Positions 1 through 42,000 of a DNA stretch of 64,000 nt are shown here, piece by piece; position 1 is the first letter of the stretch, and each line of letters begins with the position of its first letter. This DNA is from Pecten maximus (Eukaryota): contig NC_047025.1 in assembly GCF_902652985.1 (NCBI RefSeq), positions 27,342,001 to 27,406,000 of the forward strand, written 5' to 3'. Made by a program: the position numbers.

Positions 1-3000
1 TGTTCTAATAATTCCTAGCTATGGTGATATGACAGAACGTATTCCACCTTTTCCCTCCACGACTTGAATCCTTTCTGTGACGCAGGGATCCATCATTAGA
101 AAGCTCCAAGCTTTGCTAATCAATTTGATGATACATATGTACATTATTTTAAATTTTAGGAAGCATGTACAGCACTGCTGATGGATGGGGTCGTGGGTCA
201 AAGGAGTTTTGGAATGAGGGATCAGTAAGGGTTAGGGTGTGGAGTCATTTTAAAGCTGATTTGATATACTCCGCAGTGTCTTTATTGGGAAATACTACAA
301 GGAAACGGCATTCCCATCACCTATCCACGCGTAAAGGAGGCTCAATGGACATTGACAATGGAATGATTTACGTAACGGTAAATATCTTGCTTTCATTACC
401 GTTAACTGTTTTTATTTAGTATTTGAAAAAAACAACTTCTGTTATAAAGACAGATGATTATGTTTCATTTCGTTTTGTGTAATTGACGAGTAAGGAGTAA
501 GATATATATTGTTTTAAGATTCTTTAGATGGGATTTTCAGCTCAAAAGACTCGACTTTGTTTAGTATGAAAAGGGTAGGTTCCTAAAACCATTTTTTTGT
601 AAAAGCATACCTGAATATGTCATTTCTTTTACAGTTATGAAATGCAAAAGGTCTATAGGACCCGTAATTTACTTTTTACACTACTGAACTGGGTAGGGAA
701 GTGGTGGTAGAGTGAAGTTACAAAAGTTATGTTTAAACATTCTTAGAGATATTTATGGAAAAATAGACCTTCGGACATACACTTTCTTGATAATAATAAG
801 TTAATATCACATAATACAATATACATAGGACCTGAAAAGGTTAGCGGTAACCTGCCCGACCACGCGAGTTTTCCCTGGGTAATCCGGTTTCCTCCTACAT
901 TAAGATCACTCGCACGCTTACATCCGGGCTAACAAGCGTGATTAGTATAAGTTAGTATCTAGCTACCAAAACACCCTAAGAGGACTGGCTGTGCAATTCA
1001 TTAACTATGTAATTTATTAGCTTTCTCTTTATAACTGTCTACAACAGTAAAAGCTTAATAACATATATGGTTTTAGTACCAGTTTATATTTAATGGAATT
1101 TTGTAATTTTCTGGATGCAATTAAATATAATTACCTTCTTGTGACTATATCACTGTTAGTGATTATCTCCCTTCTCACAGTTCATTATATCACAGATCTC
1201 TGATTAAATATACAATAGATATATAAATTCTGTTATCTATGTAGCGTAAGCAAACATAATTTTTTATTTACTTATTTTTATTTAATACTTGAAATTTGTT
1301 TGGTACAATGTACACATGGAGGAGACCGGTAATACCATCTATACCTATCCTTTGTTTTTGTATTACATGTAACTTCTGTTTTTCTATTGTTTTGAATGAA
1401 TGTGTGAGTGAATACTTGTTGATTATTTTATTACATACAAATCATCATTTATAGGCCTTACAGAAAGATGCTGTGCTTTTACTTCACTAAAGATTAATGC
1501 TACTTTTATGAATCTTAGCAATGCCATTGGACTATTTAGTAAATTATACCTTATATTTATGTATTGGAATGAAGTATGTGGTTCCTCTCGCCGTCTTACT
1601 CTTGTATAAATATATTTTTATACCTTCAATACTTTTCAATTATACTTGAGCATCAAAAGAGGGAGTGTAACATCTTTCTGTCAGGTCTAACCTGAAGTTT
1701 TTCTGGAAGAAGGCTTATATAGGCTTAGCCTGTTGTCTGATTCTTTTAACAATGCTGTATTTGCATGCATAAATATTTGTATGTATTATATATGTATTGT
1801 TAATAAAATATTTTGAAATTAGTATAAGTTGATATAACTTGTTTCGCAATAGTTGTAAAATAGATAAAGTTTATATTATATATATAATAGTTGGAGCAAA
1901 TTAGTATTAATTAATGTTTTATATGATAATTCAAAAGATATACCTGGTGATAGCCTTCAATGCAACATGGTTAGAAGTAGTCACTTAAATGTTTATGTTC
2001 TCCGTTAACGTAAATGATAATATTTTGTAAATGTAATAAGCAAAATTGCCGATATTTTTGTGTGATTAACTAGTTGTATGGTCTCTATTCACTAACCTAC
2101 CTAACCTACCTAAAATGAAACTGTAATACACGGAAAGGTGACCAAGTAGTATAGGATACTTGCTGTATGACAACACAAACCTACTCTGCGTTTTCCTGCT
2201 GGACACTGGCAATACTGATCTGTGATAGGGTCATCCTTGTTGTATGTATTGGATACTATCCAAAGATTGTATTTGTTCTGGGATTTGTGGCGAGAACGTA
2301 ATTTTGTATTTTTGTCACTTGATTAGGCAGTAAGGATATCTGAAGGTCACCATTATCGGTTAGGTGTATCCCGAGTCTGGCTGATTTGATGAGCGCTATA
2401 TCTGGCGGTTTCCGTATCAAGCTCTGGAAAAAAATGTTTGTACTTGTCTTCCACTAAGAATTATTCTTCAAGTCCAAAGAGAGCCTAGCTCTTCTTGCTA
2501 GTTTATAGTCTTTTGCTGCACGGGCAATAGACGGATTGTGTATAGGACCACGGATAGCATTCAGGCAGGCAGTAGTAACTCCAACAAGCTGTTCTATAAC
2601 GTATTTCAATAAAACAATAAAAAGATAACTGCTCTTTAACAATTTCCGCAGTTTAAATCCTCCGTAGTAACTTTCTACGTCTCAGCATGCTTTTGTACAA
2701 TGTCTGTTTGATATTTCTGTGTCATGCTGTTGCTAACCTGACCGCAAGAATGAAGGCATGTGTGATTCAAAATCAGATGACTTGATGAGGTCAGAAACAT
2801 CACCGATCTCTCTGTCAATAACAATGTTATCACTATTATGTAGCCATACTTTCAGGTTTGCCACAGACTAAAAATAAAAAAAGAATGAAATCTTGGCGTC
2901 CTTTCATTGCCATAAAAGAGCCCTATTGTGTCCAGAACATAACCACCTGGAAGCACAAAACTCACCAACTGTAGATAATACCGCGTTTGTTTGCCGCAAT

Positions 3001-39000: not shown

Positions 39001-42000
39001 CATTAAGTTGATTGTATTTTGCGTGTGATAATTTTATTTACTGACCTTTGCAGTATTTGTCATATATGTAATACATTTTTTTTTTTTTTTTTTTTTTTTT
39101 TTGTAATACATCAACTGTCAGTTAACCTGGTCACGTGGCAGCGAAATCTATAACAAGCCTTTATTATCTTACCTGTAAATATTACCGTACCATCACCAGA
39201 ATTATCGTGCCTATTGGGAACATACAGTTTGACTGACGTTTCATTATACTTGTAAACAACGCCTCCATACACTCCTGATTTGTCATCATCACGTTGAGAG
39301 GATCCAAGTCCGGGGAATACGAAGTTTGTGTCACTACCGCTGATTGGCCTAACTTGGATATCAACCTTGATGGGAACTTGTGTGATGTTGAGTTGTATGA
39401 TGGCCTCTGAGTGGACAGATTGTGCTTTAAGTTTGACGTAACTGCTGACGTAATTTGGCGGTTGGAGACACGTCCCACATTTTATAGTTGCGTCTGATGA
39501 TCAAAACGAAAACAGTATGGCATCATAGCGACAACACATGTAAACATCTATCGGTATCATAGCAACAATACATGTACATATATATCGGTAACATAGCAAC
39601 AGAAAATGTATACATCTATCGGTATCATAGCAACGACACATGCACACATATCTCAGCATCATAGCCACACAAAATCGGTATCATAGCAACGACATATGTA
39701 CGCGTCTATCGGTATCATAGCGACAATACATGTACACATCTATCGGTATCATCTTAGCAACACATGTACACATCTATCGGTATCATCTTAGCAACACATG
39801 TACACATCTATCGGTATCATAGCAACGACATATGTACGCGTCTATCGGTATCATAGCGACAATACATGTACACATCTATCGGTATCATCTTAGCAACACA
39901 TGTACACATCTATCGGTATCATCTTAGCAATACATGTACACATCTATCGGTAGCATAGCAACGACACATGTACACATCTATCGGTATTATAGCAACAACT
40001 CGTGTACACATCTTTTGGTATCATAGCAACAACACATTGACACATCTATTGGTATCATAGCAACAAGATATGTACACAACCATTAGTATCAAAACAACAA
40101 CGCATGTACACATCTATTAGTATCATATCGACAACACATGTACACATCTATCGGTATCATAGCAACAACACATGTCGCATCTATCAGTATCATAGCAACA
40201 GTAAATATACACGTTAACCATCATATCAACAATGAATACTACAGAAAATATACATGTTAAGACAGCCATGATGTATGTAAAATGTATTTTAAGTTAGGAG
40301 AAGGCTAACTAAGTTGTAAGAACTTGTGCCTAATCCTTTTTTTTGTCATTTTAAGGCAATGCAATATATCTAAACCAATACTACATAATCTTGATATACT
40401 ATACATATTTATTTCATTTTAGATAAGTTTCAGTGTTGTCTTACTGTCTTTTCAGTCCTCTACTTACGGCCTTTGGCGTATAGGGCAACACACATTATTA
40501 CGTAATTAAAAGTGTCAAAATTAAAGAAATGGCATAGAGATGTTGCTGATCGAAAATTAGAGAAAAAAAAAGTGCAGTTATTAATATTAGATAAATAATG
40601 GTAGTTGTTTACCTGTATGATAAATAGAGGCTATAAAGACACTGTAGAAGGCCACTTTGTCCATAATCCGAGAGCTCCTGTTGGAACAATCTGTTTCCTT
40701 GAGTTGACTAGCTTTATATCTCCTATATTGATAAACTTTCGTCCATCTACTCACCTTATGTGATAAACCCCGTCCAAATTGTCACTGTGTCTCTGTAATC
40801 TACTTCTGACTCGAGTACTGGCGATTGGTGATAACATTGTCATCAGAAATGTCATTCTACTTTAACCCCGTTTTTATTGGAAGTCGTGAGCCATCTACTG
40901 TATAGTAGTTATATGTGATATTTAATATTGCTGATTTATCTAGGAGATTACTGGCCTGATTTATTGAAAATATTTCATCTCATTTTCAATTTTTTAACAC
41001 ATGTTAAACTCACTCAGTCTATAAAACATGGTAATATCATAATACATTGCCTACTGGAAGTTTAGACATAATGCTGAGGATTAAGTTAGTCCGACGGCAT
41101 GCATAGTTTTTGTATGACATGTAGTTTCGCAAAAGAAATGGGGATATGAATCAAAAAGAGGAAGCAAACGACAAACACCTGACTTTTAGTTCAAAACCTC
41201 CCCAGTACCTTACTAGAACTACAATCGTGAAAATGATATTAAGTAATCGTAAAAATAAAGATTATGTCAGAAAACATGCATTATGGCGTTTCAGTAATAT
41301 CCCATTGCCTTAATTCACATTAGAATGTATCAATTTCAAAGCCGTTACACTCAATCAATTTATTTTCACACGATTTCGTTTAATTATCCATACATGTACG
41401 TGAGTTTAAGTTAACACCCCAGAGTTAAGAGGAAACCCTCTGAAATAACATCATCAATGTGTGTTTCAGCATTGAATGTCGAGATAACTACTGTAGTTTA
41501 AAACCTACCAAAATAGAAACTAAACAGGAAGGATGTATCCTTACAGAGAGTCCTACATGTCATTGGAACGTAAATTACATTAATTAATTCGACGTTCATA
41601 CTATAGCAGTTTGTTTAAAGGGTATTTAAGGCGAGCATTATTTATAACTTAGTTACATTTTTGTTTTTTATATGATTAGCATTTAGCCTAATTAACCCAG
41701 CTGTACAACTGGGACTTGTCACTACGCTCGTAAGTAGTCCTCTCTTTACTTACAGTCATCGTAAGGACTGTCTGTCTAACTAATTGTATATGGAGTCTCA
41801 CTATGAAATTCTCATGAAAACTTTTGATAGGAAACAAAATATCCCAATTCATTTTAAAGATATATGTTTTTGCAAAGTCGCGACGGCAAAATCGAGAAAG
41901 TAATTTCGTGTGTTCGCCATCGCGTATACGACATAAACGTCTGGCTAAAGGAGCCTCTGTCAGTCGGCATGGGAAATATACGGTAGGGAAATAGTCGATT

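What the first reader, a model, noticed from the sequence alone, without database searches (positions are those of the whole stretch)
160..40664. Mirror-image gene order: inverted duplication of a [membrane protein + ApoD lipocalin] module
Seen: the order is A(+) ApoD1(-) | ApoD2(+) ECI(+) B(-). A and B are paralogs with matching exon boundaries, the two ApoDs are paralogs with identical intron phases, and each receptor-like gene converges on an ApoD gene. Inference: one old inverted segmental duplication centred between 12.2 and 15.4 kb, with ECI gained or lost on one arm. Retaining both pairs raises the speculative possibility that a secreted lipocalin and an orphan surface protein are functionally linked (e.g. 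ligand carrier and uptake partner).
Basis: partly seen in the sequence, partly recalled or inferred. Interest (0 to 1): 0.65.

Follow-up and report, generated by a model that had tools for sequence, protein, structure and literature searches.

The report
Old mirror-image duplication around two lipocalin genes
Two ApoD-like lipocalin genes lie head to head and are flanked by two related membrane-protein genes in mirror order; this is a real but very old and fairly ordinary local duplication, and nothing found here shows that the two gene families work together.

Summary
The layout is real: A(+, cut by the window start), ApoD1(-), ApoD2(+), a crotonase-family gene "ECI"(+), B(-).

- **Lipocalins.** Each has four coding exons (114/125/92/224 and 114/125/95/224 nt), intron phases 0,2,1, and 126 of 182 aligned residues identical. 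Human ApoD is the best solved relative.
- **A and B.** They share two ectodomain exon pairs with the same phases (72 of 155 residues identical), then a Ser/Thr-rich stalk exon and a transmembrane exon with matching phases.
- **No third copy.** The 64 kb hold no further copy of either family.
- **The proposed dS test cannot decide.** Synonymous sites are saturated in both pairs (pS 0.91 and 0.77; ML dS at least about 3.5 and about 2). Equal dS is not rejected (p=0.31). Four-fold transversions do differ (33/50 vs 14/39, p=0.006).
- **No other trace.** No non-coding symmetry and no ECI relic survive.
- **Verdict.** One inverted duplication is the most economical reading but is unproven.
- **A/B ectodomain.** It is a three-fold beta-rich repeat with no Pfam or PDB match. 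An H-type-lectin-like lead from the ESM Atlas is weak.
- **Carrier/receptor idea.** It has no support.
- Synteny in relatives, expression, and the spliced proteins.

The parts
160..8904 (+). Gene A, visible 3' part only. Exons 160-377 (end of one ectodomain repeat and start of the next), 4347-4602 (rest of the last repeat), 6406-6489 (short Ser/Thr-rich stalk), 8801-8904 (transmembrane helix plus Lys-rich stop-transfer). The terminal exon or stop after 8904 is not resolved.
   Evidence: Kyte-Doolittle 19-residue maximum 2.84 for the TM exon.
10544..12185 (-). ApoD1: ApoD-like lipocalin, 184 codons in 4 coding exons (12185-12072, 11517-11393, 11030-10939, 10767-10544), intron phases 0, 2, 1.
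   Evidence: Pfam Lipocalin_2 31.8 bits (cut-off 24) on the exon 2 piece and Lipocalin 28.6 bits (cut-off 23) on the exon 4 piece. Best solved relative of exon 4 is apolipoprotein D, 2hzq, E=1.5e-13.
12186..15384 (.). Head-to-head spacer between the two ApoD start codons, the supposed centre of symmetry. It holds a 16-nt tandem repeat at 14032-14593 (35 copies).
   Evidence: No mirror-symmetric non-coding similarity: only 2 short inverted pairs, 18-19 nt, neither symmetric about the centre.
15385..17690 (+). ApoD2: ApoD-like lipocalin, 185 codons in 4 coding exons (15385-15498, 16544-16668, 17059-17153, 17467-17690), intron phases 0, 2, 1.
   Evidence: Pfam Lipocalin 32.0 bits (cut-off 23) on the exon 4 piece. 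Best solved relative of exon 2 is apolipoprotein D, 2hzq, E=3.2e-06.
21693..23931 (+). 'ECI': enoyl-CoA hydratase/isomerase (crotonase) family gene, 233 codons in 4 coding exons (21693-21826, 22515-22693, 22979-23114, 23679-23931). The C-terminus ends in Ser-Lys-Leu. It is present on the right arm only.
   Evidence: Pfam ECH_1 33.0 bits (cut-off 27) on the exon 2 piece, with weaker matches on 2 further pieces. PDB enoyl-CoA hydratase/isomerase 4kpk, E=9.4e-06.
31760..40664 (-). Gene B: predicted type I membrane protein, about 555 codons up to the end of the TM exon. Exon 40664-40613 carries the start and a hydrophobic N-terminus. Three beta-rich ectodomain repeats lie in exons 39493-39173 + 38587-38510; 38114-38010 + 36948-36841 + 35941-35730; and 35941-35730 (second half) + 35163-34884. 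Two Ser/Thr/Pro/Gly-rich stalk exons are 34188-34003 and 33601-33392. The TM exon is 31872-31760.
   Evidence: Kyte-Doolittle maximum 1.97 for the TM exon. Internal repeats: tblastn of the 39493-39173 exon vs the 35163-34884 exon E=5e-08 and vs the 36948-36841 exon E=3.5e-04.
30827..31759 (-). Array of 39/45-nt tandem units directly after B's TM exon, open in the TM frame down to the stop at 30827. It is either a repetitive cytoplasmic tail or an intronic/3' minisatellite.

Best explanation
This is a very old local duplication in an AT-rich animal genome. An ancestral block held a type I surface-protein gene converging on an ApoD-like lipocalin gene, probably with the crotonase gene between them. 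It was copied in inverted orientation next to itself, giving A> <ApoD1 | ApoD2> ECI> <B. The redundant crotonase copy on the left arm was then lost. All four duplicated genes stayed intact under purifying selection, while introns, spacers and synonymous sites diverged beyond recognition and tandem repeats and transposon debris accumulated. The layout is a historical footprint and needs no functional link between the two families.

Shown: both paralogies, the matching exon structure, the orientation, the saturation and the purifying selection.
Inferred: that one event made both pairs, and that ECI was lost rather than gained.
For: - Mirror order and strands.
- ApoD pair: 126 of 182 aligned codons encode the same residue. 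A/B pair: 72 of 155.
- Identical intron positions and phases within each pair.
- A's last repeat exon is closest to B's last repeat exon (45% identity, E=6e-23), not to B's first (33%, E=3e-07) or second (E=0.66). The gene copy therefore post-dates the internal repeats.
- Both pairs are saturated at synonymous sites, and a shared dS is not rejected (LRT 1.05, p=0.31).
- dN is 0.21 and 0.48. With dS at its lower bounds, omega is at most about 0.06 (ApoD) and about 0.24 (A/B), so selection is purifying.
- ECI has introns, so it is not a retrocopy insertion.
- No third copy of either family in the window.
Against: - Equal age is not shown. dS has no upper bound in either pair.
- Transversions at four-fold sites differ: 33 of 50 (ApoD) vs 14 of 39 (A/B), Fisher p=0.006. 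Taken at face value, the ApoD split would be older.
- Protein divergence runs the other way (31% vs 54% differences).
- No non-coding mirror similarity and no ECI relic on the left arm, where the best hits have E>=0.9.
- A mirror layout of two pairs is expected in roughly 1 of 12 random arrangements (my own count).
- A's 5' part is outside the window.
Confidence: 0.55

Rival explanations
1. There were two or more separate local duplications. The lipocalin gene was duplicated head to head on its own, as lipocalin clusters often form, and the A/B pair arose at another time. The mirror order is then partly coincidence or came from a later inversion.
For: - Four-fold transversions differ between the pairs: 33/50 vs 14/39, p=0.006.
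- The mirror layout has about a 1 in 12 chance (my own count).
- ECI breaks the symmetry.
- ApoD-like genes are known to expand locally: teleost ApoD clusters (PMC6325677, listing and abstract) and a sea-slug ApoD-like expansion (PMC8079154, passages).
Against: It needs more events than one inverted copy. The LRT does not reject one shared dS (p=0.31). The excess of ApoD transversions coincides with a codon-usage shift in ApoD2 (GC3 0.565 vs 0.426), which breaks the stationarity such counts assume.
Confidence: 0.32
2. The two pairs were kept together by selection because the secreted lipocalin and the neighbouring surface protein work as carrier and docking/uptake partner.
For: Both members of both pairs are intact and under purifying selection after a very long time. 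In vertebrates a type I membrane glycoprotein, basigin, has been discussed as an ApoD partner (PMC4846773 and PMC9167181, listing and abstract only).
Against: There is no direct evidence of any kind here. Neighbours made by one duplication stay linked by default. B's nearest neighbour is ECI, not ApoD2. The title of PMC9167181 itself reports basigin-independent membrane interaction of ApoD. The A/B ectodomain has no recognised ligand- or lipocalin-binding family.
Confidence: 0.06
3. It is an assembly artefact: a false palindrome made from haplotypes or a fold-back read.
For: Inverted symmetric layouts can be produced by assembly errors (general knowledge).
Against: The arms share no nucleotide similarity outside two ApoD exons (75% over 157 nt and 72% over 108 nt). 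Synonymous sites are saturated. Intron lengths differ (554/362/171 vs 1045/390/313 nt). The window has no N.
Confidence: 0.01

Closest known systems
Apolipoprotein D / ApoD-like lipocalins and their local gene clusters
   Same: - Lipocalin Pfam matches above cut-off.
- Human ApoD (2hzq) is the best solved relative of 2 of 2 exons searched.
- Small secreted-type protein of 184-185 residues with a hydrophobic N-terminus.
- Local multiplication of ApoD-like genes is described in teleosts (PMC6325677, abstract) and a sea slug (PMC8079154, passages).
   Different: Here there are only two copies, head to head rather than in a tandem array. Orthology to chordate ApoD is not established: the PMC8530192 abstract calls ApoD a chordate gene, so 'ApoD-like' is the safe name. 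The conserved lipocalin intron-phase pattern (0,2,1...) is recalled from Sanchez et al. 2003, which I saw only as a reference in PMC6402760. If that recall is right, identical phases say little about how recent the duplication is.
Inverted (palindromic) segmental duplications of neighbouring genes
   Same: Two paralog pairs lie in mirrored order and orientation around a central spacer, with one extra gene on one arm, as expected after loss of a redundant copy.
   Different: No arm-to-arm nucleotide identity is left, so the mechanism, the breakpoints and even the single-event status cannot be read from the sequence.
H-type lectin domain (Pfam PF09458) proteins of molluscs and phage tail fibres
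   Same: Beta-rich extracellular module of about 110-135 residues. The Atlas search with B's first repeat exon lists clusters in which 26% and 10% of members carry H_lectin (scores 0.83 and 0.82). It also lists an unnamed, mostly molluscan cluster at 0.91 sharing 195 of 256 features.
   Different: No Pfam match to H_lectin at E<=10 in any of the 8 exon pieces or the 13 ORF pieces. No PDB sequence match. The AlphaFold models are too poor to compare (pLDDT 53.7 and 37.0). Atlas scores under 0.9 are leads only, and the recognition values (2071 and 1990) are below the level typical of known families.
Basigin (CD147) as proposed ApoD partner
   Same: Type I membrane glycoprotein with repeated beta-sandwich ectodomains that has been linked to ApoD uptake (PMC4846773 and PMC9167181, listing and abstract only).
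   Different: No Ig-family or any other Pfam match in A/B. No binding evidence. The basigin-ApoD link is itself disputed (title of PMC9167181).

Membership tests
Lipocalin (ApoD-like) | Sequence match to lipocalin family profiles above the curated cut-off | tested here: met
   3 of 5 ApoD ORF pieces scanned match above cut-off: PF08212 31.8 bits (cut-off 24); PF00061 28.6 and 32.0 bits (cut-off 23). The 2 signal-peptide exon pieces have no match.
Lipocalin (ApoD-like) | Closest characterised relative is apolipoprotein D rather than another lipocalin | tested here: met
   2hzq apolipoprotein D ranks first for ApoD1 exon 4 (E=1.5e-13, 13 hits listed) and for ApoD2 exon 2 (E=3.2e-06, 18 hits listed). 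Only solved structures were searched.
Lipocalin (ApoD-like) | Eight-stranded beta-barrel fold of the whole protein | not tested
   This needs the spliced protein, and the joined step was left out.
Lipocalin (ApoD-like) | Orthology with chordate APOD | not testable with these tools
Crotonase superfamily (ECH_1), 'ECI' | Profile match above cut-off | tested here: met
   PF00378 scores 33.0 bits (cut-off 27) on the exon 2 piece. Two other pieces score 20.9 and 15.9 bits, below cut-off, and 1 of the 4 pieces has no match. PDB enoyl-CoA hydratase/isomerase E=9.4e-06. The last exon has no PDB hit at E<=0.01.
Crotonase superfamily (ECH_1), 'ECI' | Isomerase rather than hydratase catalytic residues | not tested
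   Only family level is supported, so the name ECI is not verified. The C-terminal Ser-Lys-Leu is read directly. Its meaning as a peroxisomal signal is recalled.
Type I membrane protein (A, B) | N-terminal signal, one TM helix, basic stop-transfer | tested here: met
   B has a hydrophobic 17-codon first exon. TM exons have Kyte-Doolittle maxima of 2.84 (A) and 1.97 (B), each followed by a Lys-rich run. No dedicated predictor was available. A's N-terminus is outside the window.
H-type lectin (PF09458) | Profile match to H_lectin | tested here: not met
   0 of 8 exon pieces at E<=10 and 0 of 13 ORF pieces at E<=1. Splitting by exon lowers the power of this test.
H-type lectin (PF09458) | Six-stranded beta-sandwich fold | tested here: inconclusive
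AlphaFold2 on two single exons gave pLDDT 53.7 and 37.0.
Single inverted segmental duplication | Two paralog pairs in mirrored order and orientation | tested here: met
Single inverted segmental duplication | Equal neutral divergence of the two pairs | tested here: inconclusive
   Both pairs are saturated. LRT p=0.31 for equal dS, but four-fold transversions differ, p=0.006.
Single inverted segmental duplication | Residual inverted similarity of non-coding arms | tested here: not met
   blastn arm against arm gave 2 hits, both ApoD exons. No symmetric inverted repeats in 12186-15384. This is expected at this age, so it is not decisive.
Single inverted segmental duplication | Same block in related species | not testable with these tools

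The most novel reading that the evidence does not exclude
A and B belong to an undescribed family of invertebrate surface proteins. Their ectodomain would be a new, possibly H-lectin-like, beta-sandwich repeat. Their genes would have stayed next to ApoD-like lipocalin genes since before an ancient duplication because the surface protein docks or takes up the loaded lipocalin.
Probability: 0.05. Interest if true: 0.6.

Novelty: new member of a known kind. Interest (0 to 1): 0.22.

Why it matters
As it stands this is a tidy example of an ancient inverted duplication. It also cautions that dS comparisons fail once synonymous sites saturate.

It would matter more under two conditions. The mirror block would have to be conserved across distant relatives, and the Pfam-less ectodomain would have to bind the lipocalin. 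Invertebrate lipocalin receptors are essentially unknown and the vertebrate ApoD receptor question is unsettled. None of that is shown here.

Tried and rejected
**Family and fold of the A/B ectodomain**
- Pfam gave nothing for the ectodomain. One of the 13 A/B pieces, the tandem-repeat ORF, reached NPM1-C at 29.2 bits against a cut-off of 29. No single stretch passed, so I take it as summation over repeats.
- PHROGs: 0 of 5 pieces matched.
- PDB sequence searches found nothing significant. Single exons gave best E=0.55 and 0.0053. The 0.0053 hit, a pilin chain, had no stretch that passed on its own. A four-sequence profile gave best E=0.46.
- AlphaFold2 on two single exons with four-row alignments gave pLDDT 53.7 and 37.0.
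The hits were generic FN3-like sandwiches and I do not rely on them.
- ESM Atlas, two exons: unnamed clusters only at scores of 0.9 or above.

**Other attempts**
- The search for related loci with the repeat alignment was not run by the tool, because no stretch was conserved enough. I did not pursue it, since that collection holds only bacteria and archaea.
- Dating by dS was rejected as uninformative.
- Search for an ECI relic on the left arm: none.
- Test of whether B's 39/45-nt array is coding. Variation by codon position in the TM frame is 10/5/1 in 10 units of 39 nt and 4/7/6 in 7 units of 45 nt, so there is no third-position excess. This was left open.
- Complex prediction was not used. 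I do not claim binding, and the lipocalin exists here only as four exon pieces.
- Assembly artefact: rejected.
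Full report
**What the window is.** The 64 kb contain no N and are AT-rich, with GC of about 0.29-0.45 in 2-kb windows. Genes are split by GT/AG introns and surrounded by many tandem repeats. It is an animal-type genome. One weak hint is an unnamed, mostly molluscan Atlas cluster at score 0.91.

**The two lipocalins.** ApoD1 lies on the minus strand and ApoD2 on the plus strand.
- ApoD1 coding exons: 12185-12072, 11517-11393, 11030-10939, 10767-10544.
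- ApoD2 coding exons: 15385-15498, 16544-16668, 17059-17153, 17467-17690.
- All borders are AG/GT and the intron phases are 0, 2, 1 in both. Exon lengths are 114/125/92/224 and 114/125/95/224 nt.
- Pfam lipocalin models match above cut-off on 3 of the 5 pieces scanned.
- Human apolipoprotein D (2hzq) is the top solved relative of both exons searched (E=1.5e-13; E=3.2e-06).
- 126 of 182 aligned codons give the same residue.
- The start codons face each other across 3.2 kb, which hold a 16-nt repeat array.

**The two membrane-protein genes.** B on the minus strand is complete at its 5' end.
- It starts at ATG 40664 with a short hydrophobic first exon.
- Six exons follow that encode three copies of a beta-rich repeat of roughly 110-135 residues.
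- Two Ser/Thr/Pro/Gly-rich stalk exons come next, then a transmembrane exon (31872-31760) ending in a Lys/Arg run.
- A on the plus strand is cut by the window. Its first visible exon (160-377) begins with a phase-1 acceptor. It is followed by 4347-4602, a short stalk exon (6406-6489) and a TM exon (8801-8904).
- A 160-377 aligns with B 35941-35730 (30 of 70 residues identical, E=9e-16). A 4347-4602 aligns with B 35163-34884 (42 of 85 aligned codons identical, E=6e-23). Borders and phases are the same in each pair.
- A's last repeat is closer to B's last repeat than to B's first or second repeat. The genes were therefore duplicated as whole multi-repeat genes.
- One donor in B is ambiguous. Only 38510 keeps the frame with the next exon; 38463 looks stronger but would not.

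**The gene in between.** A four-exon crotonase-family gene lies at 21693-23931 on the plus strand, between ApoD2 and B. Its evidence is ECH_1 at 33.0 bits against a cut-off of 27, a PDB enoyl-CoA hydratase/isomerase hit at E=9.4e-06, and exon borders. It ends in Ser-Lys-Leu, which I recall as a peroxisomal targeting signal. Only the family is supported, not the name "isomerase". B's 3' end therefore faces this gene, and only A directly faces a lipocalin. No relic of the crotonase gene is detectable on the left arm: the best hits there have E>=0.9.

**Is it one inverted duplication?** The order and orientation fit one inverted copy of a block [A> (<ECI) <ApoD].
- Nei-Gojobori counts, summed exon by exon, give pS=0.906 (bootstrap 0.80-1.02) for the lipocalins and 0.774 (0.67-0.88) for A/B. 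Both are at or beyond saturation.
- A pairwise codon-model likelihood gives flat profiles. The lower support limits are about 3.5 and about 2 substitutions per synonymous site, with no upper limits. A shared dS is not rejected (LRT 1.05, p=0.31).
- dN is 0.21 and 0.48, so omega is at most about 0.06 and about 0.24. All four genes have been under purifying selection.
- Against equal age, transversions at four-fold sites are 33 of 50 for the lipocalins and 14 of 39 for A/B (Fisher p=0.006).
- ApoD2 has a clearly higher GC3 than ApoD1 (0.565 vs 0.426), which can inflate such counts.
- Arm-against-arm blastn finds only two lipocalin exons. The central spacer has no symmetric inverted repeats. Intron lengths differ.
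- By my own count, two paralog pairs fall into a perfect mirror in about 1 of 12 random orders and orientations.
- Together, one inverted duplication is the most economical history (about 0.55). Separate events remain quite possible (about 0.3). An assembly artefact is excluded by the divergence of the arms.

**What A and B are.** No Pfam family matches the ectodomain (0 of 13 ORF pieces at E<=1; 0 of 8 exon pieces at E<=10). No PHROG matches and no PDB sequence matches significantly.
- AlphaFold2 on single exons predicts only strands, at low confidence (pLDDT 53.7 and 37.0).
- Foldseek finds nothing at E<=0.001.
- The Atlas search with B's first repeat exon gives unnamed clusters at 0.92-0.91. 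One has 79 members and is mostly molluscan. Clusters with minority H-type-lectin annotation appear at 0.83 and 0.82. The other exon gave nothing useful.
- A and B are thus single-pass surface proteins with an unclassified beta-rich repeat. An H-lectin-like fold is a lead, not a result.

**The functional speculation.** Nothing here links the lipocalin to the surface protein beyond adjacency, which a single duplication produces for free. Vertebrate work on basigin as an ApoD partner exists but is contested (PMC4846773 and PMC9167181, listing and abstracts only). Local expansion of ApoD-like genes is already described in teleosts (PMC6325677, abstract) and in a sea slug (PMC8079154, passages). 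My 4 searches turned up no paper on ApoD linkage to a neighbouring membrane-protein gene.

**What was left out or stayed unchecked.**
- The spliced gene models were searched and folded exon by exon only. This limits the power of the Pfam, PDB, Atlas and AlphaFold results for the ectodomain, and it prevented any test of the lipocalin barrel or of binding.
Homologues of A/B, the taxon of origin, microsynteny in relatives and outgroup dating therefore all stayed unchecked.
The borders were then obtained from coordinates.

**Verdict.** The single-event interpretation is plausible but untestable from this window. The functional idea is unsupported. This is an ordinary, very old local duplication whose only mildly unusual element is the unclassified ectodomain family.

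Noticed in passing
window 30827-31759 (-): About 21 tandem units of 39 or 45 nt start exactly at the donor-like site that ends B's TM exon. All unit lengths are multiples of 3 and the TM frame stays open for about 310 codons. Each unit carries GT donor-like sites, and variation among units shows no third-codon-position excess (10/5/1 and 4/7/6). It could be a repetitive cytoplasmic tail or a minisatellite grown from an exon-intron junction. A has nothing like it.
   Followed up: partly
window 15385-17690 vs 10544-12185: ApoD2 has GC3 of 0.565 against 0.426 in ApoD1, although GC at codon positions 1+2 is the same (0.42 vs 0.43). 33 of the 38 differences at 50 shared four-fold sites are transversions, more than saturation predicts. 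This suggests a codon-usage shift in one copy, perhaps linked to expression level.
   Followed up: partly
window 14032-14593: A 16-nt tandem repeat (35 copies, 91% matches) sits in the middle of the head-to-head spacer between the two lipocalin genes.
   Followed up: no
window 26632-28475: A 22-nt satellite with about 84 copies and strong AT skew (0.44 in that 2-kb window) lies between ECI and B.
   Followed up: no
window 29644-30009 (-): An open frame of 121 codons contains a 21-nt repeat (9 copies, 29683-29878) that encodes a Pro/Asp/Asn/Gly-rich heptad. It lies downstream of B on the same strand and has no Pfam match. It could be a further 3' exon of B, another gene, or non-coding.
   Followed up: partly
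window 32053-32876 and 39522-40200: There are two more tandem arrays inside B's introns: 13-nt units (about 66 copies) and 34-nt units (about 20 copies).
   Followed up: no
window 57953-59543 (+): A tyrosinase-family gene: Pfam Tyrosinase at 69 bits and 28.3 bits on two ORF pieces.
   Followed up: partly
window 18940-19300 (-): Two adjacent ORF pieces in different frames match DUF3504 (E=3.7e-04 and 2.3e-05, both below cut-off). This is probably a decayed mobile-element remnant between ApoD2 and ECI; the link of DUF3504 to Crypton-type elements is recalled.
   Followed up: partly
window 7900-8121 (+) and 2110-2322 (-): ORF fragments inside A's introns look like transposase debris. The first looks mariner/Tc1-like by eye (recalled motif, no Pfam match). 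The second has a weak SWIM zinc-finger match (E=0.006, below cut-off).
   Followed up: partly
window 60091-63130: A block of 25-nt, 12-nt and longer nested satellites with very strong GC skew (0.27-0.35) lies near the window's end.
   Followed up: no
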